From Patescibacteria group bacterium (GTDB lineage Bacteria > Patescibacteriota > Patescibacteriia > Patescibacteriales > UBA12465), in the NCBI GenBank assembly GCA_041650715.1, contig JBAZKQ010000001.1, positions 326,945-390,944 on the forward strand: a stretch of DNA of 64,000 nucleotides, given 5' to 3'. The translations under genes and the position numbers were made by a program. This document shows positions 24,042 through 44,254 of the stretch, piece after piece. The notes below the pieces were generated by a model, which saw only the letters and a list, made by a program, of their open reading frames with translations, ran no database searches and was not told the origin of the DNA. Numbering within the stretch: position 1 is the stretch's first letter; each line of letters begins with the position of its first letter.

Positions 24042-24611
24042 CTATTTCTTTATCGCTTTTTTGATTGCCTTTTTAACGACTTTTTTCGTCTCTTTGCTCA
24101 CTTTTTTAACGATTTTGGCTATTTTAACCGGTTCAATAATTAGTTCTGGTTGGGATACTTTCGGGACAATCGGAGCGGCTGTTTTTCCCAATAAATTTAA
24201 AATCTGATCCAATTTGGCATTAATAGATTCTAATTTATCTCTCATTTGGTTATTTTCCGGACGAACTTCGCTGCGTTCCGGGCGCATATTTGATGGTCGG
24301 CTATCCATTCTTGGGCTGGAAGCATGATCATGATCGTTTTTAAAACATTGGCTGCAATAAACCGGTCTCAAACCGCTCGGTTTAAACGGTACTTCGCAGG
24401 GTTGGCCACAGTCGGCACAGATTGTTTTAAACATTTCCGGTCGATCACCTCGATCGCGACGTTCGCCACCGAAACCACCGCGTTCGCTACGGCCTCCGCC
24501 GCCACCAAAACCACCGCGATCGCTACGGCCTCCGCCAAAACCGCCCCGTCCTCCGGAAAAGCTCTTTTTCTTAAAATCACCCCTGTCACCCTCTCGATTG
24601 AAATTCTTCAT
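24042..24611 (-). CDS. CxxC-x17-CxxC zinc-ribbon protein with RGG-rich N-terminus and Lys-rich C-terminus
   Basis: CADCGQPCEVPFKPSGLRPVYCSQCF core, flanked by (R/S)(D/E)RGGFGGG repeats. Confidence 0.8.
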   Translation of the reverse strand: MKNFNREGDRGDFKKKSFSGGRGGFGGGRSDRGGFGGGGGRSERGGFGGERRDRGDRPEMFKTICADCGQPCEVPFKPSGLRPVYCSQCFKNDHDHASSPRMDSRPSNMRPERSEVRPENNQMRDKLESINAKLDQILNLLGKTAAPIVPKVSQPELIIEPVKIAKIVKKVSKETKKVVKKAIKKAIKK

Positions 24612-24668: not shown

Positions 24669-25916
24669 TTAGAAAACTACAATATTCTGCGCTGCCTGAC
24701 CTAATTCCTTGATAAAGTTAAAATCTACCAAGAGTAAGGATAAAACCAGGATGATCAGTAATATTGTTTGAAAAATAACGGATTTATGTTGGACGGTGGC
24801 GCGGACTACAATATTTATAATCAAAGCGAGCATTAAAAACAGTAAAAAAGAAAAGTAAATTACTTTCGAAACATTTATCACTTTAGCTGCGTTTTCGACT
24901 TGCGGGTTAACATTCAGATCAACATAGGACGGATTAAGTGGTAAATTATTAAGAACTTCTGGCTCGGCAGGAGATATTTTTTGGGGCGCAGAAGTAGCAA
25001 GTGCCGTCTTAATGGTGGGCGGAGTGTAACTCTTTTCTTCAGCTTTAACGACAACGGAGTGCGCGACTTGAGCTCCCGTCTTCATGTCCGGGTTGATAAT
25101 TGGCTCTTTTGTCTCCCCACTTGAAATCGCGGCAACGGTCTTAATCGGCGTGGCCGCCAATAGCGGAGTTTCGTTTTTGGCTCCAAAAATTTCCACCAAT
25201 ATATTAGTTTCTTCGCCGTTTATTTTGCCATTCACGACGGCCAGGCCAAGGTCGGTATATTTGGGGTTTAAAATATTTTTTTTATGTCCCGGCGAAGCCA
25301 TTAAAGCGGCGTGGGCATCGTCCGCCCCTAAGAAGTTAAGAGCTAAATTTTCGCCGACTAAAGTATAGGCATATGAATTTCGATTAACAAAATTCCAAGG
25401 CATGCGTCCGTCCGGACTGGTGTGAGAAAAATAATCGTTAATTAACATATCTTCGGCCTTGCTTTGTGCCGCCTGGTTCAAAATAGCATTTGAGTTTAAA
25501 GGTGAAACATCGTTTGCTATCCGCGATTCATTCGTTAAGCTTAAAATTTGGGCAGCTGTTGTTTCCGACATCTTAGCCTCATCTTGATAGACTAAAAACA
25601 GGTAGCCGACTGAAAAAATTTTCAAAGTTAAAAGTAAAATTGTAATTATTACTAATTGGCGCGGACGCAAAATTTTCGGCTTATTGTCGTTATTATCATT
25701 AGGTATGAAATAGTCGCGAAAAATAGAAAGTGAATCATGAAAATAACGTTTCATATTTTCCTGGCCATTCTTTAATTCAGTGACTTCCCTTTTTTCTTCT
25801 TTTACAAAATCGCCAAAATTATCTTTGGCGTCAGATGTATTTTTTTTAATTATTTTTAGCAATTTTTTTAGCATATTTTCTATAACCACAATATCATTTT
25901 TCCATTGTTTCGTCAA
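24669..25916 (-). CDS. membrane-anchored CAP/SCP (PR-1-like) domain protein
   Basis: CAP-domain motifs (YFSHTSPDG, GENLA, SPGHKKNIL), with an N-proximal TM helix and C-terminal TM helices. Confidence 0.8.
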   Translation of the reverse strand: MTKQWKNDIVVIENMLKKLLKIIKKNTSDAKDNFGDFVKEEKREVTELKNGQENMKRYFHDSLSIFRDYFIPNDNNDNKPKILRPRQLVIITILLLTLKIFSVGYLFLVYQDEAKMSETTAAQILSLTNESRIANDVSPLNSNAILNQAAQSKAEDMLINDYFSHTSPDGRMPWNFVNRNSYAYTLVGENLALNFLGADDAHAALMASPGHKKNILNPKYTDLGLAVVNGKINGEETNILVEIFGAKNETPLLAATPIKTVAAISSGETKEPIINPDMKTGAQVAHSVVVKAEEKSYTPPTIKTALATSAPQKISPAEPEVLNNLPLNPSYVDLNVNPQVENAAKVINVSKVIYFSFLLFLMLALIINIVVRATVQHKSVIFQTILLIILVLSLLLVDFNFIKELGQAAQNIVVF

Positions 25917-26550
25917 TGTTAATTAAATCAGAAACTATCACTAATCGATTTTTTGTAGAATAAATCGGGTCGCACGTATACAGGGTGACAATCGCTTTAG
26001 GGCTTATATTATATGGTGAAGAATTACTCGGATCGATAATCATTGTTTGCCGCACACGGTAATTATATTGCCTTCCCTGCCAGAGTATAGAAAAGATATC
26101 TCCTGTTTTGAGCTTATCAAATAAATAAAAAGTCGTATTATTGGGTGGCAAATATTTAAAGCGGTGCCCGGTAATAATTGTGTTTCCTCCCTTGTCTGGA
26201 GTGGAACCAAACGGTACAAGCCAGGCGCCTTTGGATAATCCGGTCTTTTCATTGTCGCTCAAGATAATTGGGGCATTAACGCCGATTTTCGGAATTATAA
26301 GGCGATCGGGAGAAATGGAAAATTCGCTAGCCGGTAATTTATTAATTATTGTTTTAACCGCGGCGTTAACTTGTGAAATATCCTGGCTTTCTTTGTCTTT
26401 AGCTCCGAAAAATCGGTATTTAATTTGCGGATAAAACGGATAAACTATGAGATAAAGCAATAGCGCGATGTTTAAAATTTTTAACCCAAAAACGAGGGTT
26501 TGAAAAATTTCTCTCTTCTTCTCTATTTTTCCGGGAAATATTTTATTCAT
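25894..26550 (-). CDS. sortase (transpeptidase)
   Basis: Catalytic triad context ITGHR ... TLYTCDP ... NRL, with an N-terminal membrane anchor. Overlaps both neighbours. Confidence 0.88.
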   Translation of the reverse strand: MNKIFPGKIEKKREIFQTLVFGLKILNIALLLYLIVYPFYPQIKYRFFGAKDKESQDISQVNAAVKTIINKLPASEFSISPDRLIIPKIGVNAPIILSDNEKTGLSKGAWLVPFGSTPDKGGNTIITGHRFKYLPPNNTTFYLFDKLKTGDIFSILWQGRQYNYRVRQTMIIDPSNSSPYNISPKAIVTLYTCDPIYSTKNRLVIVSDLINIDETMEK

Positions 26551-29500
26551 TTATTCTTTTTTCAAGATAAAAACTAAAACCGGTTGACAAAAAGAGGAGT
26601 AGGACAAGCCCGGCAAGTTCGAAAGGATTAAAGCCGGTTTCCGCTAAGACCGCTATTTTTCTGATTTCTAAACTTGAACTGGCAGTAACAACATCATTGT
26701 TATCGGAGCTGGCGTAAGCTTGGGTCGCTAAATTTTTAGCAGCGGCGTCTCGCGCGACATCGATTTTAACTTTGATTACTTTTGTTTCTCCCGAAGCCAT
26801 ATCGCCTAAGCTCCAACTTTGTTCCTGTTTACCGGTATCGCTAAAGCTTAGTTCGGGCGGAAGCACGTGTTTTAAAATTGTATTATATGAACTCAAATTA
26901 CCATTATTAGTAACGGTAAGTTCGAATTCGACTCCTTTTGTTCCCGGGTTAGCATAAGGGACAAGAACTTTATTAGTGATACTAAGCTGCGGTGCTCCTT
27001 CTTCACCGAGCACAAGAACTTGTCCCGGAGCAGCCCCTGAATTGCAAGTTAAAGTCTGAGTCAGCGGCTTTTCTTCTCCGACCAGCTCAGATAAATTGTA
27101 GGTGGAAATCGGGCGGAGATAATAGGCCGTATTTGGGTTTAAACCATCGATATTTATACTATGGCCGCTTACTTGGTTCGAGTTTAACGGCGTTGAGCTG
27201 GCATATCCGTAATTAGGCGATACGGCGAGAGTCGGATGTGATTCGGTATCGAAGATTACGCGCGAGTCGGCCGCGTAGCTTGTTAACCAGGTAAAAGTTA
27301 AATTAACTTTGTCGCCCGAACATAACATAGTTATTTGCGGATTTGAAATGCCAAAACTAATTATTCCACCTCCACCGCCGCCTCCGCCACCACCACCTCC
27401 ACCGCCGTTTGATTCGTTTTCACAATTAGCGCTGCAGCCATCACCGCTTACAACGTTGCCGTCGTCGCATTGTTCTCCGCTTTCAAGAATATTGTTTCCG
27501 CAAATCGGAATTATGGCGACACAGGCGGAACCATTCCAATTAAAGCCGGCGGCGCAGGAAAAATAACAAGCTTCGGTTGTTGATGCCAAACTGTAAATAG
27601 TGGAGCTGGCTATTTTTGACCAGCTGGTGCAAGTTGTCCCGTTTGAAGCTATACATGTCTGCTCATAACCGCTTACCGTGTTCCAGACGCTATTTTCCGG
27701 TTTTGCACTGCAGGAAAAATTATTAGTTTCCCACTGGCAAGTACTACTGCAGCCGTCACCAGCACCTATATTATTGTCATCACATTGCTCGCCCTGGCCG
27801 CTATCTACAATACCGTCTCCGCAGGAGGCGCCGTTTATCGTCGCTGTTTTGCATTGATTTGTACAGTAATTGCAAGTTTCGCCATATGCGGCTGAACAGA
27901 TTGTCCCGTTTTGCGTACCGTCGTCGCATTGTTCATCTGCTTGATTTATCGAAGTATCGCCACAGTAAGGATCGGGAGTATCGGGCGTACAGATATTGCC
28001 GCTTCCTAAATGATAGCCGGCAGCGCAGGCAATTTGGCAAGCAGCGTTGCATAGACCATGGCTAATAACATCGCCATCACATTGCTCGCTGCTTTGATTA
28101 ATAGTTAAATCACCACAATAAGGCAAATTAATTAATGTACAGGTTGCAGAACAAGATTGATTTGCTCCAACGCCACTCGAGCCATCGCATTCTTCGCTGC
28201 CGTTTTTAATTTTATCGCCGCAGTTAGGTCCTGTGACCGAAGCTGTTTGGCAAAGCGACGAACAGTAATCACATGTCATGTTGTAATCAGCTTTACAGGT
28301 TTGACCGTTTAAGGCGCCGTCATCGCACTGCTCGCCGGGGTCTTGGATCGTGTTTCCACACACGCCAATATAGTTTCCGAAATCTTGGCCGCTGATATTT
28401 TGGCCTTCATTTAGGGTTATGGTGTAGGGACTTCCCGCCAGTGGGTAGCTTTGCGTATATGAGCTGACGCCAGTTTTTCCACCCTCGGAAATCGTGTAAG
28501 TTCCCGGCAGCAATCCGCTAAAAGAATATTTACCCAGGGAGTCTGTTTTTTGAGTTGAGCTGGCTGAACCGCTAAGATTAATGACCCAGTCGGAATCAGC
28601 GGTTTCACCGGTCAATAATCCGTCATTATTAGCATCAATATATTTTGTGCCCGATATGGAACCGTACTGGCAAATTCTTTGGGATATGGTGTTGTATATT
28701 TCTTGCAAATCACTTGGGCTCGGAGCAAAGTAGTATTCGGCATTTGTGCTACTGGCGATATCCTGCAGCATTGTTGCGTTTACGTCTGTGCCCAGGCCGA
28801 TTGTAAAAATTTTATACCCGGCAGCAGCGGCGGCCAGCGCCTTGGTTTTAGCATAATCCACATCATCGGCATTTTCACCCGATCCATTACCATTCGGTAA
28901 ATTAGCCATACCGTCAGTCAATAAAATTTCGATTTTAACGGCTTGCGGGTTTGCGCGGCTTGACCCAAGCTCGGTATTCGCTAATTTTATCGCGTCTCCA
29001 ATATTAGTCGAGCCTCCGGATATTAAGTTGTTGATGCTTGTTTTGGTGGCCGCATGGCCGTTTGATAGTCCCTTGTCTAAAGTAGAGTAGCTCGCAAACG
29101 AGACAAGGGCTGATTGGTCGTTGCTCATTAGTAAGTCAACAAAGTTATTTGCCGCTGCTTTAGCTGAACTAAATTTACTATAAGTTAGTGTCCAGGACCC
29201 AGTTTTCTGCATACACCAGTCTTTGTCTATATCGGTTTTCGTTTTTTTAATTCCATCTTTATAATATACGCAAGTGCCCAATTCTCCCTGGGCCATACTT
29301 CCAGAACGGTCGAGAATCAAAACGACGTCGACCGGCGCAGTACACATTTGAGGGGCGCTCGCGTTGGCCGCCGGGGCAACAAAAAACACGCCCAGGAGAG
29401 ACATGTTAATAACCGAAAGAAACATTGTGAAAATAGACAGAGTTTTTTTAAGCTCGCTATTTTTTTTATTTGCACTTAAAGATGCTTGTCTTTTAGACAT
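26543..29500 (-). CDS. large sortase-anchored surface protein: vWA domain, Cna-B/SdrD-like domain, multiple Cys-rich repeats, poly-Gly linker, LAETG sorting signal
   Basis: Signal peptide. MIDAS motif DRSGSM. GTKYIDANNDG...GTYTISEG. At least 6 repeats of CG(D/N)xxxxxxEQCDDG. A run of 13 Gly. C-terminal LAETG plus a hydrophobic stretch plus KRINE. Confidence 0.9.
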   Translation of the reverse strand: MSKRQASLSANKKNSELKKTLSIFTMFLSVINMSLLGVFFVAPAANASAPQMCTAPVDVVLILDRSGSMAQGELGTCVYYKDGIKKTKTDIDKDWCMQKTGSWTLTYSKFSSAKAAANNFVDLLMSNDQSALVSFASYSTLDKGLSNGHAATKTSINNLISGGSTNIGDAIKLANTELGSSRANPQAVKIEILLTDGMANLPNGNGSGENADDVDYAKTKALAAAAAGYKIFTIGLGTDVNATMLQDIASSTNAEYYFAPSPSDLQEIYNTISQRICQYGSISGTKYIDANNDGLLTGETADSDWVINLSGSASSTQKTDSLGKYSFSGLLPGTYTISEGGKTGVSSYTQSYPLAGSPYTITLNEGQNISGQDFGNYIGVCGNTIQDPGEQCDDGALNGQTCKADYNMTCDYCSSLCQTASVTGPNCGDKIKNGSEECDGSSGVGANQSCSATCTLINLPYCGDLTINQSSEQCDGDVISHGLCNAACQIACAAGYHLGSGNICTPDTPDPYCGDTSINQADEQCDDGTQNGTICSAAYGETCNYCTNQCKTATINGASCGDGIVDSGQGEQCDDNNIGAGDGCSSTCQWETNNFSCSAKPENSVWNTVSGYEQTCIASNGTTCTSWSKIASSTIYSLASTTEACYFSCAAGFNWNGSACVAIIPICGNNILESGEQCDDGNVVSGDGCSANCENESNGGGGGGGGGGGGGGIISFGISNPQITMLCSGDKVNLTFTWLTSYAADSRVIFDTESHPTLAVSPNYGYASSTPLNSNQVSGHSINIDGLNPNTAYYLRPISTYNLSELVGEEKPLTQTLTCNSGAAPGQVLVLGEEGAPQLSITNKVLVPYANPGTKGVEFELTVTNNGNLSSYNTILKHVLPPELSFSDTGKQEQSWSLGDMASGETKVIKVKIDVARDAAAKNLATQAYASSDNNDVVTASSSLEIRKIAVLAETGFNPFELAGLVLLLFLSTGFSFYLEKRINE
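27366..27407. repeat. (GGN)n tract encoding the poly-glycine linker
   Basis: ccacctccaccgccgcctccgccaccaccacctccaccgccg on the plus strand, in frame within the 985-aa ORF. Confidence 0.9.
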
Positions 29501-29737
29501 ATTTTTATAATTAGTTTGAAGACATTACATAACCCGTAACTTCAGTCTTGAAAACAAACAGTTTCAGGCTATAAACAGCCTCGAACTAATTATTTTAAAT
29601 ATCTCTAAAATGTATATATATTATAATTCCGCTTTTTTAAAAAATCAACTGTATTGAAACAAAATGAACGATTTGTCAAATTATTAACAACTTATTTTAA
29701 ATGTGTTAAAATTAATAAACAGATAGATTAAAATCAT

Positions 29738-30409
29738 ATGAAAATTTTAATCGTCGAAGATCAAGAAAATTTAGCTCGTTTAATTTCTGATGGTTTAGAG
29801 GCGGAAGGCTTCTCGACAGAATATGTTCTTGACGGCGAATTTGCAGCCGCGCGGATAAATTGTAATCAGGATTTGTATGACCTTATCATCCTGGATATAA
29901 TGCTGCCCGGAAAGAACGGCCTGGATGTTTGTCGTTTTTGTCGAGAGAAGAATATTACGACGCCGATTTTAATGCTTACCGCCAAAGACAGTCCCGAGGA
30001 TATAGTCGCCGGATTAAGTTTGGGCGCCGATGATTACTTGGTTAAGCCCTTCTCTTTTGAGGTTTTAATTGCGCGTATTCGCGCCTTATTGCGGCGGCCC
30101 GCGAGTAGCTTACCGGCTATATTAAAAATTAAGAATATTACGCTCGATCCGAATCAAAAAATAGTTTTCAAAAATAGGATTGAGATAAAGTTAACCAAAA
30201 AAGAATTGTGCATTTTAGAATATTTGATGCGGCACCCTAATCAAGTTATAAATCGAGATCAAATTATTGCCAATATCTGGGACCTGTCAAATGAATCCTT
30301 CAGCAATTTCGTTGATGTGCATATCAATAATTTAAGAAAAAAAATCGGCAGCAAGAAAGATAAGGTCATCGAAACAATCAGCGGGCTCGGCTATCGTATA
30401 AAAAATTAA
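29738..30409 (+). CDS. OmpR-family response regulator
   Basis: Receiver domain (DLIILDIMLPG, LMLTAKD, DDYLVKPF) plus winged-helix C-terminus (GLGYRI). Confidence 0.93.
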   Translation: MKILIVEDQENLARLISDGLEAEGFSTEYVLDGEFAAARINCNQDLYDLIILDIMLPGKNGLDVCRFCREKNITTPILMLTAKDSPEDIVAGLSLGADDYLVKPFSFEVLIARIRALLRRPASSLPAILKIKNITLDPNQKIVFKNRIEIKLTKKELCILEYLMRHPNQVINRDQIIANIWDLSNESFSNFVDVHINNLRKKIGSKKDKVIETISGLGYRIKN

Positions 30410-30440: not shown

Positions 30441-32363
30441 TTATAGCTCCGACAACGGGGTATTTTTTGTATCCGGCCAAAGCGGCTCCTGTTTATTCGG
30501 AAAATGTTTTTTCAAAAGGGGGAAAGAAATATAAAACGTAGTTCCCTCACCAAGTTGAGATTCGAAGTGAATCTCGCCCCCCGCTTGTTCGGCCAAGGCT
30601 TTGACGATATATAGACCCAAGCCGTTACCGGAAGGACAGATTTCTCTGGCATTTTTGGCACGGAATAGTTTCGTAAAAATTTTATTTTTGTCCTCCTCGG
30701 GAATTCCGCAACCGGTGTCGCTAATCGCCAGTAAAATTGAGTTGTCGCGAATTTTCGCTTGAATTCTGATAGTCCCCTCCGGAGGCGTATAGCTGATGGC
30801 GTTAGCTAATAAATTTTCCAGAATAATTTTTATTACTTGCGCGTCAAATAAAATTTTAGGCAGGGGGATATCGTCATAGCAAACTTGCAATTTTTTTGCC
30901 CGTAGCTGCCGGGTTAAGTCATTGAGTATTTGCTGGATATTTGCTTCTAAACTAACCGCTTCCAATCTGACTATATATGTCCCCAGTTCGACTCGAGATA
31001 CATTCAATAAATTTTTTATTACATCCGTCATGCGCTTGGTTGAGTCATGGATCTCCCCGAGATAGCGCGCCTGCTTGTTGTCAATCGGTCCCGCGACGCT
31101 ACGCAATAATAGCTCTGTGCCTAAGCGGACGCTCGTTAAATGCGTTCTTAATTGGTGCGAGACTAAAGAAATAAATTCCGTTTTCGCATACTCGATATCT
31201 TTTGTTTCAGTCACGTCGTGGATAATCCATAAAATATAAGGGGCAATATTATTTTCTTCTTTAACCAGGGAAACGCTGGTGTCACCCCATAAAACAGTCC
31301 CGTCTTTTTTATGATATTTATTTTCGAAATTATAGTAGTCGAGGCGGCCGGCTCTTAGTTCCTGCAGTTCAGATATTTCCGGCAAATTAGCGGTCAAAAG
31401 GTTTGGCGCAAATAAAACTATTTTAGACAAATCCTGTGGGCTGTATTGGCTTATTTTCGTAAAGCGTTGATTACATTCAATGATTCGCCCGTCTAAATCT
31501 GTCATCAAGATACCGACGGTGGCGTTATTAAAAATGGCATGAAATTTTTGTTCGCTGCGCCGGAAATTCATTTCGCTGTCTTTAATTTCTTTAAATAAAA
31601 GGGCGAAGGGTTTGCGTAATCCGATCTCAATAAAAACAATATAGATGAGATTAAATCCGGCCAGTTTAAATAAATGAGCTAATATGCTGGCATGGTTCTG
31701 GCTGCCGTCATAAAAAATTAAAATAATTTCCGAGATCAAACTTAAAACCAGCGCCCACATTAATAAGCGATAAACACGCTTATTAAAGTTGGCGGATTCT
31801 TGAGTGAGCTTTATCATGGCCGCTATTTGAAGTAGGCAGATAATGAGCTCGCTTATCTTAGCAAGAGTGCTTGGCCAGGAACTTATCGCCTGACTTGGGG
31901 TCAAGGACGGCCACCAGATAATTAAAGCGATAATAATAATTGAAATTAAGGTGGAGAAATAAAAAATGCGCAGTGTTTTTATGCTTTTACCGATAAAAAA
32001 ACAAGCCATCAAAAAAGAAAAAGCTTGCACATAGCGAGCGGCTAACCAAAATTGCTCTGATAAATTTGTAAAATTATTGCCAAACAAAGCACCGGATTTT
32101 TGGAACGAAAAAACATGCAGCAGGTCGAAGGTCGCGACAAAGAAAAAAGCGACTCCTAAAAAAACAAAATATTTATTCGCAATTAAGCGGCGCGAGTTCC
32201 AGGTAACCATGTAAACTCCGTAGCCGATTGTTATCGCAATTATTTCCGCCAAAGAATGGAAAAGTGTATAGCTATAAAGACTGACGAGGACAACTATTAA
32301 AATAATTACTTCTCGCTGCCATAAATCAAAATAAATATTTTGTCTCGATAATTTTTTAAACAT
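30441..32363 (-). CDS. sensor histidine kinase (multi-TM N-terminal sensor, PAS, HisKA, HATPase_c)
   Basis: About 7 TM helices. PAS-like segment. H-box SHQLRTHL, N-box LLANAISYT, G-boxes DTGCGI and GNGLGL. The ATG at 32363 is preferred. Confidence 0.92.
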   Translation of the reverse strand: MFKKLSRQNIYFDLWQREVIILIVVLVSLYSYTLFHSLAEIIAITIGYGVYMVTWNSRRLIANKYFVFLGVAFFFVATFDLLHVFSFQKSGALFGNNFTNLSEQFWLAARYVQAFSFLMACFFIGKSIKTLRIFYFSTLISIIIIALIIWWPSLTPSQAISSWPSTLAKISELIICLLQIAAMIKLTQESANFNKRVYRLLMWALVLSLISEIILIFYDGSQNHASILAHLFKLAGFNLIYIVFIEIGLRKPFALLFKEIKDSEMNFRRSEQKFHAIFNNATVGILMTDLDGRIIECNQRFTKISQYSPQDLSKIVLFAPNLLTANLPEISELQELRAGRLDYYNFENKYHKKDGTVLWGDTSVSLVKEENNIAPYILWIIHDVTETKDIEYAKTEFISLVSHQLRTHLTSVRLGTELLLRSVAGPIDNKQARYLGEIHDSTKRMTDVIKNLLNVSRVELGTYIVRLEAVSLEANIQQILNDLTRQLRAKKLQVCYDDIPLPKILFDAQVIKIILENLLANAISYTPPEGTIRIQAKIRDNSILLAISDTGCGIPEEDKNKIFTKLFRAKNAREICPSGNGLGLYIVKALAEQAGGEIHFESQLGEGTTFYISFPLLKKHFPNKQEPLWPDTKNTPLSEL

Positions 32364-32526
32364 ATTAAGCAAAGTTAAAATTTTTGTTTTTGCTTGTGGA
32401 TAATTAGCGTTTTCGCCTTGAGATTGATTAAAGATTAGCCATTTTCTAAATAGTTAATAAGTATAGTGCAATTTAATGGTTTCTTAATTTTAAATTATTA
32501 TACTTTTACTTGTTAAAAGGTCGAAG

Positions 32527-32630: not shown

Positions 32631-33731
32631 ATGAAAAAAAAATATTTTAACATTTTTGCAATTGTGACGGTGATTTCATTTTCCCTGTCGCCGTTATTAG
32701 CTTTAGCACAAACAACTTCTTCTGTGGACACCATGCTGACGCGTGATTCTTCAGGCGGAGCAAATCCCATAGTTAAGGCGAAATGGGAAATGAATTCCAC
32801 TAAAGGAACAGATCAGAAATATTTAGGGACGGATGCCGCGACAACGGCCGGTGCCCAATTTATGCCCTCTGGCCAATATCAAGTCGGTAAGACAATCACG
32901 GTTTGTGGCATTGTGACAGACCCTGACGGCGTTGCTGATATAGACAATGTCTACTCGGATGTTTTTTATCCGGTCGATATTTCAACCGGACCAAATCATG
33001 AGCCTAACCGCTTGGGCTGCGGTCAACAATTGCCCGAGTTCACTTTAACCAAACTTTCTAAGGCGGACGGTATTGAATTGTTCTGCAATAAGATCAAGAA
33101 CAATAACAATAATCTGCCAACCTTTAATGAGGGTTATGGTTATAGCGAAATCTGTGCCCTTGATGGCGAACTCTGGAAAGAAACCGCCTACGCTTTTTGC
33201 GGCGAAATAACTCTTTCCTATGAAGATCCTTCGGGCAGTTATAACACTCAAGTTTTAGCTCAAGATAAAAGTGGTAAGGACGGGATGCTAACCAATACAT
33301 TTACGTATTTACCGCTCACAGCCTTTGAAGCCGACTTCAATAGCGTTGCTTATGGTAATGTTCGTTTGAACACCCATAAAATTATCAGCGGTGATTTGAA
33401 TTATTCGCCAAATGATGGTCGGGCCACGGTACGAAACATCGGTAATACGCGCCTAAGCATGAAGGTTTGGCAGAATGATATGGGGCTCAGCCAAACGGAC
33501 GGGCAATGGAACGTAAAGTACGATGGTCGAGTCGGCAGTTCGGCTGAATTTGCCAATTACTGGCCGGAAACGACTAAAACCTTAACAGAGTCGCTAAATC
33601 TATCACAGACGAACGAAATGGATTTCTCTGTGACTATTACTAAGTTTCCGCCTAATCATGACGGCGACAACTACGTCGGTAATATGGTGTTAAGCGCAAC
33701 GCCAGTTGCTCATCTGACTTGTGCCATTTAA
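32631..33731 (+). CDS. secreted hypothetical protein (Ig-like/CARDB-like folds suspected)
   Basis: Signal peptide ..LLALAQT. 366 aa. The segment ATVRNIGNTRLSMKV resembles CARDB/DUF11-type strands. Confidence 0.6.
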   Translation: MKKKYFNIFAIVTVISFSLSPLLALAQTTSSVDTMLTRDSSGGANPIVKAKWEMNSTKGTDQKYLGTDAATTAGAQFMPSGQYQVGKTITVCGIVTDPDGVADIDNVYSDVFYPVDISTGPNHEPNRLGCGQQLPEFTLTKLSKADGIELFCNKIKNNNNNLPTFNEGYGYSEICALDGELWKETAYAFCGEITLSYEDPSGSYNTQVLAQDKSGKDGMLTNTFTYLPLTAFEADFNSVAYGNVRLNTHKIISGDLNYSPNDGRATVRNIGNTRLSMKVWQNDMGLSQTDGQWNVKYDGRVGSSAEFANYWPETTKTLTESLNLSQTNEMDFSVTITKFPPNHDGDNYVGNMVLSATPVAHLTCAI

Positions 33732-33776
33732 GATGCTTATTTACTAACACGTTTCTTCGATAACGTGGAAGTCATG

Positions 33777-33802
33777 CCGGGGAGGTGCTTGCCCCTCCCC
33801 GG
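33777..33802 (+). promoter_or_regulatory. GC-rich intercistronic hairpin without U-tract
   Basis: ccggggagg-tgcttgc-ccctccccgg. The flanking catg/catg extend the stem over the ATG at 33805. Confidence 0.5.
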
Positions 33803-33816
33803 TCATGCCCAATTAT

Positions 33817-34767
33817 ATGAAAAATTTTAAAAAGTCATTTATATATTTATTGCTAATTTTTGGCTTCTACCCTTTTACAAGTTCAGCGATTGGACAAATA
33901 ACAAGTCCGATTAATATTTCTGATGCTTTGCCCAGCGAAAGCTACGAAGAGGAACTTATGATAATTGGCGAGCGCACGGCGAGCTCAAGCATCGCTTTGA
34001 GCGCTTCGGGCGAAGTTAGCGATTGGATTACTTTCTACAAACCCGAAAATTTAAATTTGGCTATTAACTCAATTCAACTGGCCGCGGGAGAAAGTGCTAA
34101 GGTGATAGCGAAAATAATGATTCCAGCCAACGCCAGCTTGGGAAAACACTCCGGCATCGTCAGTGTCGCCCTGGGGACGGGCAAAAATGAAATCAATAAC
34201 CAATCAGGTGCCTACGTGACCCAAAAAATTGATCGTGATGTAAATATAAACGTGAGCTCAGAGGAAAAAATCAATTTTAATGTTTCAATTATCCCCGAGA
34301 CTTATGATTTGGCGCTGGGTGAGCCCCTAAATATCCGCATTATCTACGATAATCAAGGAAACACGAATATCGCCCCCGACATTCATTTAAAAATGCAAAA
34401 TGGCGATCAAGTGGTTTATAGCGTTATATTTCCTTATCCCGATAATACGCCGGAAACTAAACCGGGCTCACAGTTCGAAATTAAAAGTTTGCAAATTCCA
34501 AGCACGGGATTAGAACGAGGAAAGTATACAGTTAATTTAGATTTTTATAATAATAGCACTCTTTCTCTGCAAAAGGACTTCTCTTTCAGTTTACGGACGC
34601 CGGCCGAAAAACAATCCCTGCTGGCCGGTTTTTTCAGCCAGCTGAATAAGCAAATTCCTTTGTTTTTTCTTCTCGGAATAGCTCTTTTGTTCGCCCTTCT
34701 GGTTATGGTTAGGGGCGCAAATTTTTTTAAAGAAAAAAAGAAAAGCGTGAAACTATTTGAGAAATAA
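33817..34767 (+). CDS. cell-surface protein with signal peptide and C-terminal TM anchor (COG1470/NEW3-like repeats suspected)
   Basis: MKNFKKSFIYLLLIFGF.. signal. Beta-rich repeats. C-terminal IPLFFLLGIALLFALLVMV followed by a basic tail. The track start at 33805 is also possible. Confidence 0.6.
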   Translation: MKNFKKSFIYLLLIFGFYPFTSSAIGQITSPINISDALPSESYEEELMIIGERTASSSIALSASGEVSDWITFYKPENLNLAINSIQLAAGESAKVIAKIMIPANASLGKHSGIVSVALGTGKNEINNQSGAYVTQKIDRDVNINVSSEEKINFNVSIIPETYDLALGEPLNIRIIYDNQGNTNIAPDIHLKMQNGDQVVYSVIFPYPDNTPETKPGSQFEIKSLQIPSTGLERGKYTVNLDFYNNSTLSLQKDFSFSLRTPAEKQSLLAGFFSQLNKQIPLFFLLGIALLFALLVMVRGANFFKEKKKSVKLFEK

Positions 34768-34843
34768 ATGAGATTTATTTAATTTTAGCAGGCGTATTAT
34801 TTAGATCGGAAAATTTTAATATTCCGAATTAAGCTAAAATTAT

Positions 34844-35347
34844 ATGAAGAAATTATTTTTATTGTTACCCTTGGTCATAATCATAGCGGCCGGATGTACG
34901 CTGGGTAACTCGCCAAGCGCCAGTAATACGCCGTCTTCCGCGCTTAAGGTTGTGGCAACCGGTAGCGAGGCCCTGAACGCGGGACTAAACAGTGAACTCG
35001 GGACGACGACTACGATAGCTGGCAGTATGAAATTAGTGGACTCTCCATATGCTGACAATGCCTATTTAATTTCCGGCGATATATTATCGGCTGAGGCACA
35101 AAAAGCGCTTACCGGCTTTACTTTAAATAAACAGCTTCAGTCTGACGGTTCAACGCTTATAAGCTTAACCGCCACGAACCCGGAATATAGCGATCAGAAG
35201 TATGTGATTCAAACCGGACAATCATTGTATTTTGTTGATCGCATGCTCAGCGACGACTCCGGAATCGAAGGTAATCAGGCTGATGACTTTGGACTTATTA
35301 CTGACGGAAACGGTTATATCGTGCCCTCCAGTCTGCCTTTGCCTTAA
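34844..35347 (+). CDS. lipoprotein, unknown function
   Basis: Lipobox LVIIIAAGC. 167 aa. Confidence 0.6.
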   Translation: MKKLFLLLPLVIIIAAGCTLGNSPSASNTPSSALKVVATGSEALNAGLNSELGTTTTIAGSMKLVDSPYADNAYLISGDILSAEAQKALTGFTLNKQLQSDGSTLISLTATNPEYSDQKYVIQTGQSLYFVDRMLSDDSGIEGNQADDFGLITDGNGYIVPSSLPLP

Positions 35348-36829: not shown

Positions 36830-36902
36830 ATAGTTATTATTAATTTATCTCAGCATTATAGCATAAATCGCAATATTTTCCAATTTAATGTATAATTCAA
36901 GC

Positions 36903-37964
36903 ATGAAAATCAAATACAATAGATTGACTCCCCTCTTGGTTTGCGCCCTAATTTTGGGCTTTGGGCCGGCGGCCGGGGCGAGTATTACCGATAGCCATTT
37001 AGGCTATATTTTATTACAGGTGGAAGCGAAGGGTGAGGCCTGGTATCTTTATCCGAAAAATGGCCAACGCTATTTTTTGGGTCGACCGGCCGACGCCTTT
37101 TCTATTATGAAAAAATTGGCTCTCGGCGCCAAACACGATTATATCGCCAATACGACAGTCTTTCCTGATAGTCTTAGCGGATTAATTCTTTTAGACGTGG
37201 AACAGAATGGCGAAGCCTATTATATTTATCCAAAAAATAAGCAAAAATATTATCTGGGCCGGCCGGCTGACGCCTTTCGAATTATGAGCGACTTGGGCTT
37301 AGGAATTTCAAGTAATGATTTAAATACTATTTTAAAAGCAGATATAAATAGTACCCCGGTCATATCAACGCCAGGTTCAGTTGGTAAAATACTACAAAGT
37401 GTCCCCTTTACTTCTCAGGCACCCTATGGAAATTGGCAGGATTTACGCCAAGAAGACGGTTGCGAGGAAGCAAGTTCCCTGATGGCGGTCAGATGGGCCT
37501 TGGGCAAAGGTTTAAGCAAAGATGAGGCACTCGCTGCCATTATCGCCTCCTCGGATTATACATTAAAAAAATATGGTGAATATCGTGACATATCGGCGGC
37601 AGACACCCTAAATTGGATAATCAAGGATTATTTTAATTATCAAAAAGCCGCCGTTTTAAATAATGTTAGTCAAGCTGATATCATTGCGGAATTAAATAAA
37701 GGTAATGTGATTATTGCACCTATGAACGGACAAGCGCTTGCTAATCCGTATTTTACGCCTCCCGGACCGATTACTCATATGCTGCTTATTCGCGGCTATG
37801 ATGCCGCGCGGAATGTCTTTATTACCAATGATCCAGGCACGCGTCACGGCGAGCTCTATGAATATGATGCGGATATTTTGTTTAAGGCTATTCGCGCCTA
37901 TCCGACCGGGAATCATGAGCCAATAACGAAAATCGAAAAAAACGTGATTGTTGTTTGGAAATAA
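36903..37964 (+). CDS. secreted protein with two ~50-aa N-terminal repeats and C39-like cysteine peptidase domain
   Basis: The unit LLQVEAKGEAWYLYPKNGQRYFLGRPADAF is duplicated. The C-terminal SVPFTSQAPYGNWQDLRQEDGCEEAS is Peptidase_C39_2-like. TATAAT at 36891-36896 places the transcript start at about the ATG at 36903. Confidence 0.7.
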   Translation: MKIKYNRLTPLLVCALILGFGPAAGASITDSHLGYILLQVEAKGEAWYLYPKNGQRYFLGRPADAFSIMKKLALGAKHDYIANTTVFPDSLSGLILLDVEQNGEAYYIYPKNKQKYYLGRPADAFRIMSDLGLGISSNDLNTILKADINSTPVISTPGSVGKILQSVPFTSQAPYGNWQDLRQEDGCEEASSLMAVRWALGKGLSKDEALAAIIASSDYTLKKYGEYRDISAADTLNWIIKDYFNYQKAAVLNNVSQADIIAELNKGNVIIAPMNGQALANPYFTPPGPITHMLLIRGYDAARNVFITNDPGTRHGELYEYDADILFKAIRAYPTGNHEPITKIEKNVIVVWK

Positions 37965-42973: not shown

Positions 42974-44254
42974 TTATTTATTTATCTGTAGATACTTAAA
43001 TATGCTCTCGGCCGCAATTGCCCCCTCCGAGCAGGCGGTAATAATTTGCCGGAATGAATTGGAGCCAGTGGTAATGTCTCCGGCCGCCCAGACGCCCTCG
43101 CGATTCGTCGCCTGGCTTTCTTGAGTTACTATATAATGACTTTTATCAGTTTCAAGAGATAGTTGATTAATTATACTCAATTCTGGCTCTGAGCCAATTT
43201 CCACAAACACACCATCAAGCGATAACTGATTACTACCTGCAAATGTTTGATCTAATTTAAGACCGCTGACGCTGTCAGTACCTAAGAGTTCGGTAACATT
43301 AGTATTATAAATAATATTTATTTTGGGGTTGGCTTTAACTTGCTCGATCCAGGCAGTTTCGCCGCGCAAAGCGGAGCCGCGGTAGATTTGGTATACTTTT
43401 TCGGCAAACTGCGCCAGATGCAAGGCGGCCGTATTGGCGCTATCGCTACCGCCGATGACAGCGACTGTTTTATTTTTGAAAAACATAGCATCGCAAGTCG
43501 CACAGTATGAAACGCCTCGGCCGGTCAGGGCCTTTTCGTTTGCTATTCCTAAATGCCGATGTTTTGTACCGGTTGCCAGTAAAATAGTTTTGGCCCGAAT
43601 AATATCCTTATTTGTTAAGCTGATATTATATAGACCATTAGCCTGTTCGATTGACTCGACACGAGCCGCAATTTGAGGCACGGCTTGCGAATTTACTTGG
43701 TCTTGCATTTTTTGGCTCAAAGCCATTCCCGAAATTTCAATTTCCGAGGGATAATTACATATTTTATGAGAAGCTGTCATTAAGCCGCCGGGTAAATCTC
43801 CGACCAAGACCTGTTTAATTTTATAACGAGCGGCATAAACGGCCGCAGTTAGGCCGGCGGGACCATTGCCAATAATACAAAGATCGACAATTTCTGTTTT
43901 TTGCTCTGTGCTTGAAAGCTCGGAACTAATTTCGGCGCCGAGAGATATAAGCATGGCGCTTAATTCCTTTTCACTGATATCGCCCGATAAGCGCTCAGAA
44001 GATAATTCTCCCGACTTAAAAAATAAAACGGTGGGCGAGCCGCTGACGCCAAGCGAACTTGCTAAGTCGCGATGTTCCTGACGAAATATTTTAATAAATT
44101 TTACCGTTGGAAACTTAAGGGCCATTTTTTCATAAATCGGCACCAGTTTTTCGCAAGGCGGGCAATCATCGGAAAAAAAATCAACAACCAAAATGGTCGA
44201 AGCATTTTTTAAAGATTCAAATTCGCTGTCAGATTTAAGATAAGTAATTTCCAT
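42974..44254 (-). CDS. thioredoxin-thioredoxin reductase fusion protein
   Basis: N-terminal Trx fold with CPPC. Then FAD motif IIGNGPAGLTAA, redox-active CATC, and a second dinucleotide motif VIGGSDSA. Confidence 0.88.
   Translation of the reverse strand: MEITYLKSDSEFESLKNASTILVVDFFSDDCPPCEKLVPIYEKMALKFPTVKFIKIFRQEHRDLASSLGVSGSPTVLFFKSGELSSERLSGDISEKELSAMLISLGAEISSELSSTEQKTEIVDLCIIGNGPAGLTAAVYAARYKIKQVLVGDLPGGLMTASHKICNYPSEIEISGMALSQKMQDQVNSQAVPQIAARVESIEQANGLYNISLTNKDIIRAKTILLATGTKHRHLGIANEKALTGRGVSYCATCDAMFFKNKTVAVIGGSDSANTAALHLAQFAEKVYQIYRGSALRGETAWIEQVKANPKINIIYNTNVTELLGTDSVSGLKLDQTFAGSNQLSLDGVFVEIGSEPELSIINQLSLETDKSHYIVTQESQATNREGVWAAGDITTGSNSFRQIITACSEGAIAAESIFKYLQINK

What the first reader, a model, noticed from the sequence alone, without database searches (positions are those of the whole stretch)
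24669..29500. Sortase operon with a 985-aa vWA / Cys-repeat LAETG substrate and a CAP-domain membrane protein
Three overlapping minus-strand genes form one unit. The first is a giant surface protein with a signal peptide and a vWA MIDAS motif (DRSGSM). It also has a Cna-B/SdrD-like domain, at least six CGxxxxxxxEQCDDG-type cysteine-rich repeats, a Gly13 linker, a DUF11-like domain and a C-terminal LAETG, hydrophobic stretch and KR tail. The second is a sortase (TGHR...TLYTCDP...NRL) whose start overlaps that gene by 8 nt. The third is a CAP/SCP protein overlapping the sortase by 23 nt. LAxTG rather than LPxTG is the signal preferred by class E sortases. In an organism of this type, likely an epibiont, a covalently wall-anchored vWA adhesin is a strong candidate for a host-attachment module. 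The co-transcribed CAP protein is not a usual sortase-locus component.
Basis: partly seen in the sequence, partly recalled or inferred. Interest (0 to 1): 0.55.

Follow-up and report, generated by a model that had tools for sequence, protein, structure and literature searches.

The report
CPR sortase operon with CAP partner
An ultra-small (Patescibacteria/CPR) bacterium encodes a giant adhesin-like surface protein next to the enzyme that should anchor it to the cell wall, followed by a membrane protein with a CAP domain that sits beside sortases in many other CPR genomes and looks like an undescribed helper of the anchoring machinery.

Summary
The three minus-strand genes are real. They are a 985-aa secreted vWA/MIDAS protein with an LAETG sorting signal, a 218-aa membrane sortase whose start overlaps it by 8 nt, and a CAP-domain membrane protein. 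Small corrections: the Gly run is 14, not 13. The CAP gene most likely starts at the ATG at 25874, leaving a 19-nt gap rather than a 23-nt overlap. The host is a Patescibacteria MAG on a contig of about 0.76-0.81 Mb.

The class E reading fails. Every NCBIfam class model scores far below its cutoff, the class E hallmark Tyr is a variable Leu, and relatives of this sortase pair with both LAxTG (18) and LPxTG (7) substrates. This is an unclassified, CPR-typical sortase clade.

The unit is conserved. In close CPR relatives a sorting-signal protein lies directly upstream in at least 25 of 44 loci, and the CAP gene lies within 2 kb downstream in 23 of 44. Starting from the CAP family, 21 of 80 metagenome loci have a sortase immediately adjacent. 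Both gene orders occur, with two very different sortase subfamilies.

The substrate-sortase pair is ordinary. The recurrent CAP partner appears undescribed, and its role is inferred, not shown.

The parts
29620..29648 (-). Promoter-like site (TTGATT-17-TATAAT), about 120 nt upstream of the substrate ATG, in the 237-nt divergent intergenic region
   Evidence: (10 of 12 consensus matches). This is a consensus match only, not evidence of function.
26543..29500 (-). Substrate gene: 985-aa secreted protein with the architecture of a fibrillar adhesin
29357..29500 (-). Signal peptide (about aa 1-48): basic n-region, hydrophobic core, ANA-SA cleavage-type site
   Evidence: Read directly from the translation. 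No predictor was run.
28670..29326 (-). vWA domain (aa 59-277) with a complete MIDAS: DRSGS at aa 64, GGST at aa 162, TDG at aa 195
   Evidence: VWA 73.7 bits, VWA_2 48.1 bits
28466..28642 (-). SdrD_B / CnaB-like stalk domain (aa 287-345)
   Evidence: 24.2 bits, below the cutoff of 29.7. The equivalent region of related substrates gives stronger SdrD_B hits.
27410..28360 (-). Cys-rich region with six CG...EQCD(D)G repeats (aa 381-697)
   Evidence: regex positions 381, 427, 462, 513, 560, 667; DUF4215 52.9 bits; TIGR02232 84 bits
27365..27406 (-). Gly14 linker (aa 699-712)
27110..27316 (-). FN3-like domain (aa 729-797; sub-threshold Pur_ac_phosph_N hit)
   Evidence: 21 bits against a cutoff of 30. 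The same domain recurs in related substrates.
26696..26986 (-). DUF11 / CLIPPER (CnaA-like) stalk domain (aa 839-935)
   Evidence: 41.8 bits against a cutoff of 24.6; domain described in PMC12617251
26546..26647 (-). Cell-wall sorting signal: LAETG (aa 952-956), then GF..E[FL], a hydrophobic segment and the EKRINE tail
   Evidence: The family consensus is L[A/P]xTGF[S/N/D]xxE[F/L].
25894..26550 (-). Sortase: 218 aa, N-terminal TM anchor, catalytic His129 (26164-26166), Cys193 (25972-25974) and Arg202 (25945-25947)
   Evidence: triad invariant in 28 sequences; AF2 pLDDT 83
24669..25874 (-). Polytopic CAP-domain membrane protein (401 aa from the ATG). Order: conserved cytoplasmic N-region ending in FIPxxxNxxxPKILR, TM1, CAP domain, disordered linker, C-terminal TM hairpin.
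25197..25586 (-). Extracytoplasmic CAP/SCP domain, with invariant His (FSH), GENL and His (SHKKN)
   Evidence: 57.9 bits; pLDDT above 90; 4IFA, E 1.5e-8
24726..24863 (-). C-terminal TM hairpin with the conserved loop motif NIxVRxxVQHK

Best explanation
This is a dedicated surface-protein anchoring operon of a Patescibacteria (CPR, Falkowbacteria-like) bacterium.

Gene 1 is a Sec-exported protein built like a fibrillar adhesin. It has a metal-dependent vWA/MIDAS head. Its stalk consists of a CnaB-like domain, six disulfide-rich repeats, a Gly14 hinge, an FN3-like domain and a CLIPPER domain. It ends in a C-terminal sorting signal, LAETG-GF..EL-TM-KR.

Gene 2 is a membrane-anchored Cys transpeptidase with a His129/Cys193/Arg202 triad. 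It belongs to an unclassified sortase clade found mainly in CPR bacteria (motifs TGHRFKYLPP and TC.PIYS). Inferred step: it cleaves the signal between Thr and Gly and transfers the protein to a cell-wall precursor, leaving the vWA head exposed for binding a partner surface.

Gene 3 is a polytopic membrane protein that holds a CAP domain on the outer face between TM1 and a C-terminal TM hairpin. It is a recurrent genomic partner of CPR sortases. Inferred role: an accessory factor of the sortase, for example tethering it to the wall or to sites of wall synthesis, or stabilising or regulating the enzyme or its substrate.

Shown here: domain content, catalytic residues, the sorting signal, and conservation of the gene linkage. 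Inferred: the cleavage and anchoring chemistry, the adhesin role, and any activity of the CAP protein.
For: Genes and domains.

Origin: a Patescibacteria MAG, contig 758-809 kb.

Sortase:
- The catalytic triad is invariant in 28 homologues.
- The AF2 model has a sortase barrel, and Foldseek matches sortases at E about 1e-10.

Substrate-sortase coupling:
- The two genes overlap by 8 nt.
- A sorting-signal ORF ends within 500 nt upstream of the sortase in at least 25 of 44 close CPR relatives.
- The extended signal L[A/P]xTGF..E[F/L] is conserved in 27 substrates, with F in 25 of 27 and E in 25 of 27.
- Substrates share the C-terminal FN3-like, CLIPPER and sorting-signal module but carry varied heads: vWA, TSP1/PKD or SdrD_B.

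CAP linkage:
- The CAP gene lies on the same strand within 2 kb downstream of the sortase in 23 of 44 close relatives.
- It is the commonest neighbour family: 29 loci, against 14 or fewer for any other family.
- In L082 the order is permuted to CAP, substrate, sortase. In L083 it is sortase then CAP.
- Starting from the CAP family, 21 of 80 metagenome loci have an adjacent sortase. Five are sortase then CAP with the HRFKYLPP type. Sixteen are CAP then sortase (gap -16 to 292 nt) with a different GHSS...SCWP(V/I)G subfamily found in Yanofskybacteria and Paceibacterota.

CAP protein architecture:
- The architecture and non-CAP motifs are conserved: FIPxxxNxxxPKILR and NIxVRxxVQHK.

Precedents:
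- A CAP-like lipoprotein, DalA, binds peptidoglycan non-covalently (PMC10470522).
- A small membrane protein, SafA, is genetically linked to actinobacterial sortase and protects it (PMC9282373).
Against: - No biochemical or expression data exist for any of the three proteins.
- The CAP link is not obligate. Many CAP-family loci lack a sortase (31 of 43 with at least 1 kb on both sides). Many sortase loci lack CAP.
- Part of the linkage sits inside conserved synteny: CAP-mnmA-rpsB-tsf and secY-adk-map-(CAP)-sortase.
- The wall acceptor in CPR bacteria is unknown.
- The adhesin role rests only on architecture.
- The SdrD_B and FN3-like hits in this protein are below the Pfam cutoffs.
Confidence: 0.6

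Rival explanations
1. One reading: the enzyme is a class E (housekeeping, LAxTG-specific) sortase like Streptomyces SrtE1/E2.
For: The substrate carries LAETG. Class E enzymes are the known LAxTG users (PMC5148588). LAxTG predominates among this clade's partner substrates, 18 of 27.
Against: - The class E model scores 43 bits against a cutoff of 160, below class C (66) and class D (50.6). All 28 family members fall below every class cutoff.
- The PDB profile search ranks SrtE1 (3.5e-8) well behind class C enzymes (3e-15).
- The hallmark Tyr (the GH-Y position) aligns to Leu111, a variable position.
- Seven of 27 partner substrates use LPxTG, and no sortase residue tracks the A/P difference.
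Confidence: 0.07
2. It is a pilus locus. A class C-like sortase polymerises or caps a sortase-assembled pilus, with the vWA protein as tip adhesin, as with RrgA- or SpaC-type tip pilins (comparison from my own knowledge).
For: The best HMM and PDB similarities are to class C pilus sortases. The vWA plus CnaB-like plus sorting-signal architecture resembles known pilus tip adhesins (from my own knowledge, not tested here).
Against: - The class C model scores 66 bits against a cutoff of 160.
- No DP[FWY] lid motif is present in any of the 28 sortases.
- The substrate has no YPK pilin motif or E-box.
- No second sorting-signal gene or shaft pilin occurs in the window.
- Foldseek E-values for classes A, C, D and E are all about 1e-9 to 1e-10, so fold similarity does not discriminate between classes.
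Confidence: 0.08
3. The CAP gene is merely a syntenic neighbour, a cell-envelope housekeeping gene with no functional relation to the sortase.
For: CAP occurs without a sortase next to mnmA-rpsB-tsf and elsewhere. Thirty-one of 43 CAP loci with adequate flanks have no sortase. Sortases occur without CAP.
Against: - Adjacency recurs in both gene orders, with two deeply divergent sortase subfamilies, and in at least four different flanking contexts.
- CAP is twice as frequent near the sortase as any other neighbour family.
- The gaps are tiny, and in some loci the genes overlap.
Confidence: 0.25
4. The CAP protein acts on the substrate or on the host rather than on the sortase. It could process or regulate the adhesin proteolytically, or bind lipids or sterol-like molecules. 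Lipid and sterol binding is known for eukaryotic CAP/PR-1 proteins (from my own knowledge).
For: The putative CAP-cavity residues are invariant: His in FSH, Glu in GENL, His in SHKKN. The fold matches PR-1, GAPR-1 and Pry1, and more distantly the CAP domain of the enterococcal surface protein PrgA.
Against: The matches to PrgA and Pry1 are weak (E 0.05 and 1.5e-3). The conserved cytoplasmic and TM motifs point to a role inside a membrane complex. There is no direct evidence for any ligand.
Confidence: 0.15

Closest known systems
Dedicated sortase-substrate gene pairs of Gram-positive bacteria (sortase superfamily, PF04203)
   Same: Signal peptide plus a C-terminal L-x-x-T-G, hydrophobic and basic sorting signal. 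An adjacent membrane-anchored His/Cys/Arg transpeptidase. A sortase beta-barrel fold.
   Different: The enzyme belongs to none of the curated classes A-F. The signal has a conserved primed-side extension, GF[S/N/D]xxE[F/L]. The host is a CPR bacterium with an uncharacterised envelope. A CAP membrane protein is attached to the unit.
Class E sortases (Streptomyces coelicolor SrtE1/E2; PMC5148588)
   Same: Use of an LAxTG-type signal, here LAETG.
   Different: Fails the class E HMM (43 bits against 160). Lacks the conserved beta3/beta4-loop Tyr, having a variable Leu111. Clade members also pair with LPxTG.
SafA, the sortase-associated membrane factor of Actinobacteria (PMC9282373)
   Same: A membrane protein genetically linked to a sortase gene across a large lineage. 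It sets a precedent for an accessory protein that maintains sortase in the membrane.
   Different: SafA is a small TM protein acting through an FPW motif. The CPR protein is 300-540 aa, polytopic, and carries an extracytoplasmic CAP domain. No homology is implied and none was tested.
Bacterial CAP/SCP proteins: YkwD family, B. anthracis 4IFA, Borrelia BB0689, R. sphaeroides DalA
   Same: CAP fold and the conserved His/Glu/His cavity residues. DalA binds peptidoglycan non-covalently.
   Different: Scores fall below the YkwD (99 against 171) and DalA (54 against 200) cutoffs. The CPR protein is anchored at both ends by TM segments with conserved cytoplasmic motifs, and is linked to a sortase.
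Fibrillar adhesins with CLIPPER (DUF11) stalks (PMC12617251)
   Same: N-terminal adhesive head, tandem Ig-like stalk domains including CLIPPER, and a C-terminal sorting domain.
   Different: The head is a vWA/MIDAS domain followed by six myxo-type Cys repeats and a Gly14 hinge. There is only one CLIPPER copy. Whether it forms an isopeptide bond was not tested.

Membership tests
Sortase superfamily (PF04203 / TIGR01076) | Family HMM score above the curated cutoff | tested here: met
   PF04203 72.4 bits against 26.6. TIGR01076 69.2 bits against 39.35.
Sortase superfamily (PF04203 / TIGR01076) | Catalytic His-Cys-Arg triad | tested here: met
   His129, Cys193 and Arg202 are invariant in 28 homologues.
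Sortase superfamily (PF04203 / TIGR01076) | Sortase beta-barrel fold | tested here: met
   AF2 model pLDDT 83. Foldseek hits to sortases of classes A, C, D and E at E 7e-11 to 1e-8.
Sortase superfamily (PF04203 / TIGR01076) | Transpeptidation of a sorting signal to a wall acceptor | not testable with these tools
   Needs enzyme assays or wall fractionation.
Class E sortase | NF033747 score at or above 160 bits | tested here: not met
   43 bits, lower than class C (66) and class D (50.6). All 28 relatives are below the cutoff.
Class E sortase | Conserved Tyr in the beta3/beta4 loop (SrtE1 Y229; the GH-Y position) | tested here: not met
   The position aligns to Leu111 (GAW-L). It is variable in the family (L/H/R/A) (PMC5148588).
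Class E sortase | LAxTG substrates | tested here: inconclusive
   This locus has LAETG. Across the clade position 2 is Ala in 18, Pro in 7, Thr in 1 and Val in 1 of 27 substrates.
Class C (pilus) sortase | NF033745 score at or above 160 bits | tested here: not met
   66 bits.
Class C (pilus) sortase | N-terminal lid with a DP[F/W/Y] motif | tested here: not met
   Found in 0 of 28 sequences.
Class C (pilus) sortase | Adjacent pilins with a YPKN pilin motif or E-box | tested here: not met
   No YPK motif or E-box in the substrate. No second sorting-signal gene in the window.
Sortase substrate (cell-wall sorting signal protein) | N-terminal signal peptide, plus a C-terminal LPXTG-like motif, hydrophobic segment and basic tail | tested here: met
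   LAETG at aa 952-956, followed by 29 residues with a hydrophobic core and a KR tail. The signal peptide was judged by inspection only.
vWA domain with MIDAS | PF00092 above cutoff and the DxSxS...T...D motif | tested here: met
   73.7 bits against 23.8. DRSGS at aa 64, GGST at aa 162, TDG at aa 195.
CLIPPER / DUF11 (PF01345) | HMM above cutoff | tested here: met
   41.8 bits against 24.6.
CLIPPER / DUF11 (PF01345) | Intramolecular Lys-Asn isopeptide triad | not tested
   PMC12617251 notes that not all DUF11 domains have it. No structure of this domain was predicted.
CAP / SCP superfamily (PF00188) | HMM above cutoff and the CAP alpha-beta-alpha fold | tested here: met
   57.9 bits against 21.1. 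AF2 pLDDT above 90 over the domain. Foldseek hit to 4IFA at 1.5e-8 and to BB0689 at 3.8e-7.
YkwD subfamily (TIGR02909) / DalA (NF052539) | Score above the curated cutoff | tested here: not met
   YkwD 99.4 bits against 171. DalA 53.7 bits against 200.

The most novel reading that the evidence does not exclude
The polytopic CAP-domain membrane protein is a genuine, previously unrecognised subunit or partner of CPR sortases. It would be a lineage-specific accessory factor that couples protein anchoring to the unusual envelope of ultra-small epibiotic bacteria. It might do this by binding the wall or its precursor through the CAP domain, or by recognising the conserved primed-side GF..E[F/L] part of the sorting signal in the membrane. 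If so, it would define a new sortase-plus-CAP anchoring system with its own extended signal.
Probability: 0.35. Interest if true: 0.7.

Novelty: new variant of a known kind. Interest (0 to 1): 0.5.

Why it matters
CPR/Patescibacteria make up a large share of bacterial diversity. The cultivated members live attached to other microbes, yet how they build and decorate their surface is largely unknown. Sortases are known to be common in CPR (PMC6744442). Their class, their signals and their partners have not been worked out, as far as my literature searches found.

This locus and its relatives provide three things:
- a CPR-typical sortase clade with an extended L[A/P]xTGF..E[F/L] signal;
- a family of modular adhesin-like substrates with exchangeable heads;
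- a conserved CAP membrane protein as a candidate accessory factor.

All three are directly testable in the few cultivable CPR co-cultures or by heterologous reconstitution. The sortase could also be useful as a ligase that tolerates Ala at P3.

Tried and rejected
- Class assignment by NCBIfam HMMs, by PDB profile search and by Foldseek. No class was reached, and fold similarity did not discriminate between classes A, C, D and E.
- Search for a sortase residue that co-varies with Ala or Pro at signal position 2. None was found, with 22 LA-type against 7 LP-type pairs.
- Pilus reading. No lid, pilin motif or E-box.
- Regulation by the adjacent response regulator and histidine kinase. These genes are not among the neighbour families conserved in relatives, so I did not pursue this.
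- Rfam and tRNA scans of the window found only tRNA-Gln.
- The terminator scan gave no enrichment over shuffled sequence.
- A PDB sequence search with the N-terminal 380 aa of the substrate gave only one weak hit, 4rck at E 9e-4.
- Literature searches for a CAP/YkwD-sortase link found nothing relevant. Papers on CPR sortases report presence only.
- A proper phylogeny with reference class A-F sequences could not be built, because reference sequences were not retrievable with these tools.

Full report
**Observation**

The three minus-strand ORFs are present exactly where stated: 26543-29500 (985 aa), 25894-26550 (218 aa) and 24669-25916.

Domain scans of the 985-aa substrate give:
- a vWA domain (73.7 bits);
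- DUF4215 / TIGR02232 cysteine repeats (52.9 and 84 bits);
- DUF11 (41.8 bits);
- a sub-threshold SdrD_B hit (24.2 bits against 29.7) and a sub-threshold FN3-like hit.

The sortase scores 72.4 bits on PF04203 and the third protein 57.9 bits on CAP PF00188.

A script confirmed these details:
- six CG...EQCD repeats;
- a Gly run of 14, not 13;
- MIDAS residues DRSGS at aa 64, GGST at aa 162 and TDG at aa 195;
- the C-terminal LAETG followed by 29 residues ending in KRINE.

The 8-nt overlap between substrate and sortase (ATGAATAA) is real. The 23-nt sortase/CAP overlap is an artefact of taking the longest ORF. Gene callers in two public assemblies start the CAP gene at the ATG at 25874, and homologues align from that Met. 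This leaves a 19-nt spacer.

A promoter-like TTGATT-17-TATAAT lies about 120 nt upstream of the first gene. This is the only sorting-signal protein in the window.

**Origin**

The identical sortase occurs on contigs of 758-809 kb annotated as a Patescibacteria group bacterium. The nearest named relatives are Falkowbacteria and Parcubacteria.

The rest of the window is ordinary small-genome housekeeping: UvrABC, PurA, LysRS and polysaccharide synthesis genes.

**The sortase**

Twenty-eight homologues at 47-76% identity share an N-terminal TM helix. They also share an invariant His129/Cys193/Arg202 triad and the family motifs TGHRFKYLPP and T(M/L)(F/Y)TC.PIYS.

Every NCBIfam class model is far below its cutoff for the window protein and for all 28 relatives:
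- class C: 66 bits against 160;
- class D: 50.6 against 165;
- class E: 43 against 160;
- class F: 18.7 against 166.

A profile search of the PDB ranks class C pilus sortases first (3e-15) and SrtE1 much lower (3.5e-8). The AlphaFold model (pLDDT 83) matches sortases of classes A, C, D and E with similar Foldseek E-values, so fold does not discriminate between classes.

The class E hallmark is a conserved Tyr of the beta3/beta4 loop, proposed to read the Ala of LAxTG (PMC5148588). It sits at the GH-Y position. Alignments put Leu111 of the window enzyme there, and that position varies in the family.

No class C lid motif (DP[FWY]) occurs in any of the 28 sequences. The substrate has no pilin motif or E-box.

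The enzyme is therefore a genuine sortase of an unclassified, mainly CPR clade. It is neither class E nor a pilus sortase.

**Conservation of the unit**

A scan of one genome per species returned 79 loci. I called ORFs in each and searched them with the window's domains.

Among 46 close CPR relatives:
- an ORF ending in a sorting signal lies directly upstream of the sortase in at least 25 of 44 loci with enough upstream sequence;
- a CAP homologue lies on the same strand within 2 kb downstream in 23 of 44, and within about 8 kb in 27 of 44.

Clustering all neighbours showed CAP in 29 loci. The next most common families were rpsB (14 loci), mnmA (12) and tsf (11).

**The sorting signal**

The signals align to L-[A/P]-x-T-G-F-[S/N/D]-x-x-E-[F/L]-x-x-L-L. 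Position 2 is Ala in 18, Pro in 7, Thr in 1 and Val in 1 of 27 substrates. The primed-side Phe (25 of 27) and Glu (25 of 27) are more conserved than position 2.

No sortase residue separates the enzymes paired with LA signals from those paired with LP signals.

More distant Lachnospiraceae and Butyrivibrio relatives sit next to very large LAKTG/LAQTG proteins and have no CAP gene. They too are below all class cutoffs.

**The substrates**

The substrates share the C-terminal module of an FN3-like domain, CLIPPER and the sorting signal. Their heads differ: vWA, TSP1/PKD or SdrD_B.

This fits the fibrillar-adhesin layout described for CLIPPER/DUF11 proteins (PMC12617251).

**The CAP protein**

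Its homologues share one architecture:
- a cytoplasmic N-region ending in an invariant FIPxxxNxxxPKILR motif;
- TM1;
- a CAP domain with invariant His (FSH), GENL and His (SHKKN);
- a variable linker of 110-200 residues, predicted disordered;
- a C-terminal TM hairpin whose loop carries NIxVRxxVQHK.

The AF2 model gives pLDDT above 90 for the CAP domain. Its best structural relatives are the B. anthracis SCP protein 4IFA, Borrelia BB0689 and S. aureus SAV1118, followed by eukaryotic PR-1 and GAPR-1.

It falls below the YkwD and DalA cutoffs. Full-length relatives found were all from CPR.

**Reciprocal test of the CAP-sortase link**

Look-ups of individual CAP homologues gave mixed results:
- a locus ordered CAP, DUF11/PKD substrate, sortase;
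- a sortase-CAP pair in a different genomic context;
- two loci without a sortase, one of them beside mnmA-rpsB-tsf.

A metagenome scan seeded with the CAP alignment returned 80 loci. Twenty-one have a sortase immediately adjacent, which is 12 of the 43 loci with at least 1 kb on both sides.
- Five have the window's order and the HRFKYLPP-type sortase.
- Sixteen have the opposite order, CAP then sortase, with gaps of -16 to 292 nt. These carry a very different sortase subfamily (GHSS...SCWP(V/I)G..KR). It scores only 1e-9 to 1e-21 against the window family's profile and is also unclassified.

That second subfamily is named in Yanofskybacteria, Paceibacterota and Parcubacteria genomes. There it sits at the end of the rpl-secY-adk-map operon, with or without the CAP gene in between.

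Adjacency in both orders, with two divergent sortase subfamilies and in several flanking contexts, argues for a functional link rather than inherited synteny. The link is clearly facultative.

**Mechanism**

Shown: the domain content, the catalytic residues, the sorting signal and the gene linkage.

Inferred from established sortase biology:
1. The 985-aa protein is exported by Sec and retained by its C-terminal TM segment.
2. It is cleaved between Thr and Gly by Cys193.
3. It is transferred to a wall precursor, exposing a metal-dependent vWA head on a stalk roughly 650 residues long.

For the CAP protein I favour an accessory role at the membrane-wall interface. There are two precedents. The CAP-like lipoprotein DalA binds peptidoglycan non-covalently (PMC10470522). 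SafA is a membrane protein genetically linked to actinobacterial sortase that protects it from signal peptidase (PMC9282373).

Alternatives remain open. The CAP protein could act on the adhesin or bind a ligand, or it could simply be a neighbour.

**Novelty**

Sortases in CPR are known (PMC6744442). I found no paper linking CAP/YkwD proteins with sortases.

The substrate-sortase pair is a new member of a known kind. The recurrent polytopic CAP partner and the extended signal make the system a new variant of a known kind.

My confidence is high for the anatomy and the linkage, and moderate to low for the CAP protein's role.

Noticed in passing
window 24042-24611 (-): The gene just downstream of the CAP gene encodes a 189-aa protein. 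It has an RGG/GGR-rich N-terminus, a zf_Tbcl_2 zinc finger and a Lys-rich tail. This is an unusual low-complexity protein for a bacterium.
   Followed up: no
window 36888-37964 (+); L016, L020, L024, L027, L051: This Peptidase_C39_2-like secreted protein has homologues lying directly downstream of the sortase (1-509 nt, same strand) in five related CPR loci, in the position the CAP gene occupies here.
   Followed up: partly
L052 7409-10393: A 994-aa ORF fuses a CnaB/DUF11 stalk protein in frame to a sortase catalytic domain (AHRFKYLPP...TC). There is no sorting signal or TM segment between them. A CAP gene follows 15 nt later.
   Followed up: partly
L016, L018, L022, L029, L032, L044, L045, L048 (3-6 kb upstream of the sortase): By my reading of its sequence (no family scan was run), a SipW-like type I signal peptidase gene recurs on the same strand upstream of the substrate-sortase pair in eight related loci. 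It is not present near the window's operon.
   Followed up: no
L165-L167 and L111-L164 (subset): In Yanofskybacteria and Paceibacterota a second CPR sortase subfamily (GHSS...SCWPVG..KR) sits at the end of the ribosomal-protein/secY-adk-map operon, with or without the CAP gene between map and the sortase.
   Followed up: partly
L064-L081 (Lachnospiraceae, Butyrivibrio, Pseudobutyrivibrio): The nearest non-CPR relatives of this sortase sit immediately after surface proteins of about 760-1760 aa with LAKTG or LAQTG signals. They are also below all NCBIfam class cutoffs (class E 122 bits, class C 111-123 bits, against 160).
   Followed up: partly
window 29738-30409 (+) and 30441-32372 (-): An OmpR-type response regulator is divergent from the operon, with a shared 237-nt intergenic region. 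A MASE3-PAS-HisKA kinase lies beside it. Neither is conserved next to the sortase in relatives.
   Followed up: partly
window 32631-35347 (+) and 27-1997 (+): Three consecutive ORFs (366, 320 and 167 aa) and a 656-aa ORF have no Pfam match.
   Followed up: no
window 42974-44254 (-): A single 426-aa ORF fuses a thioredoxin domain to a thioredoxin-reductase-like pyridine nucleotide-disulfide oxidoreductase.
   Followed up: no
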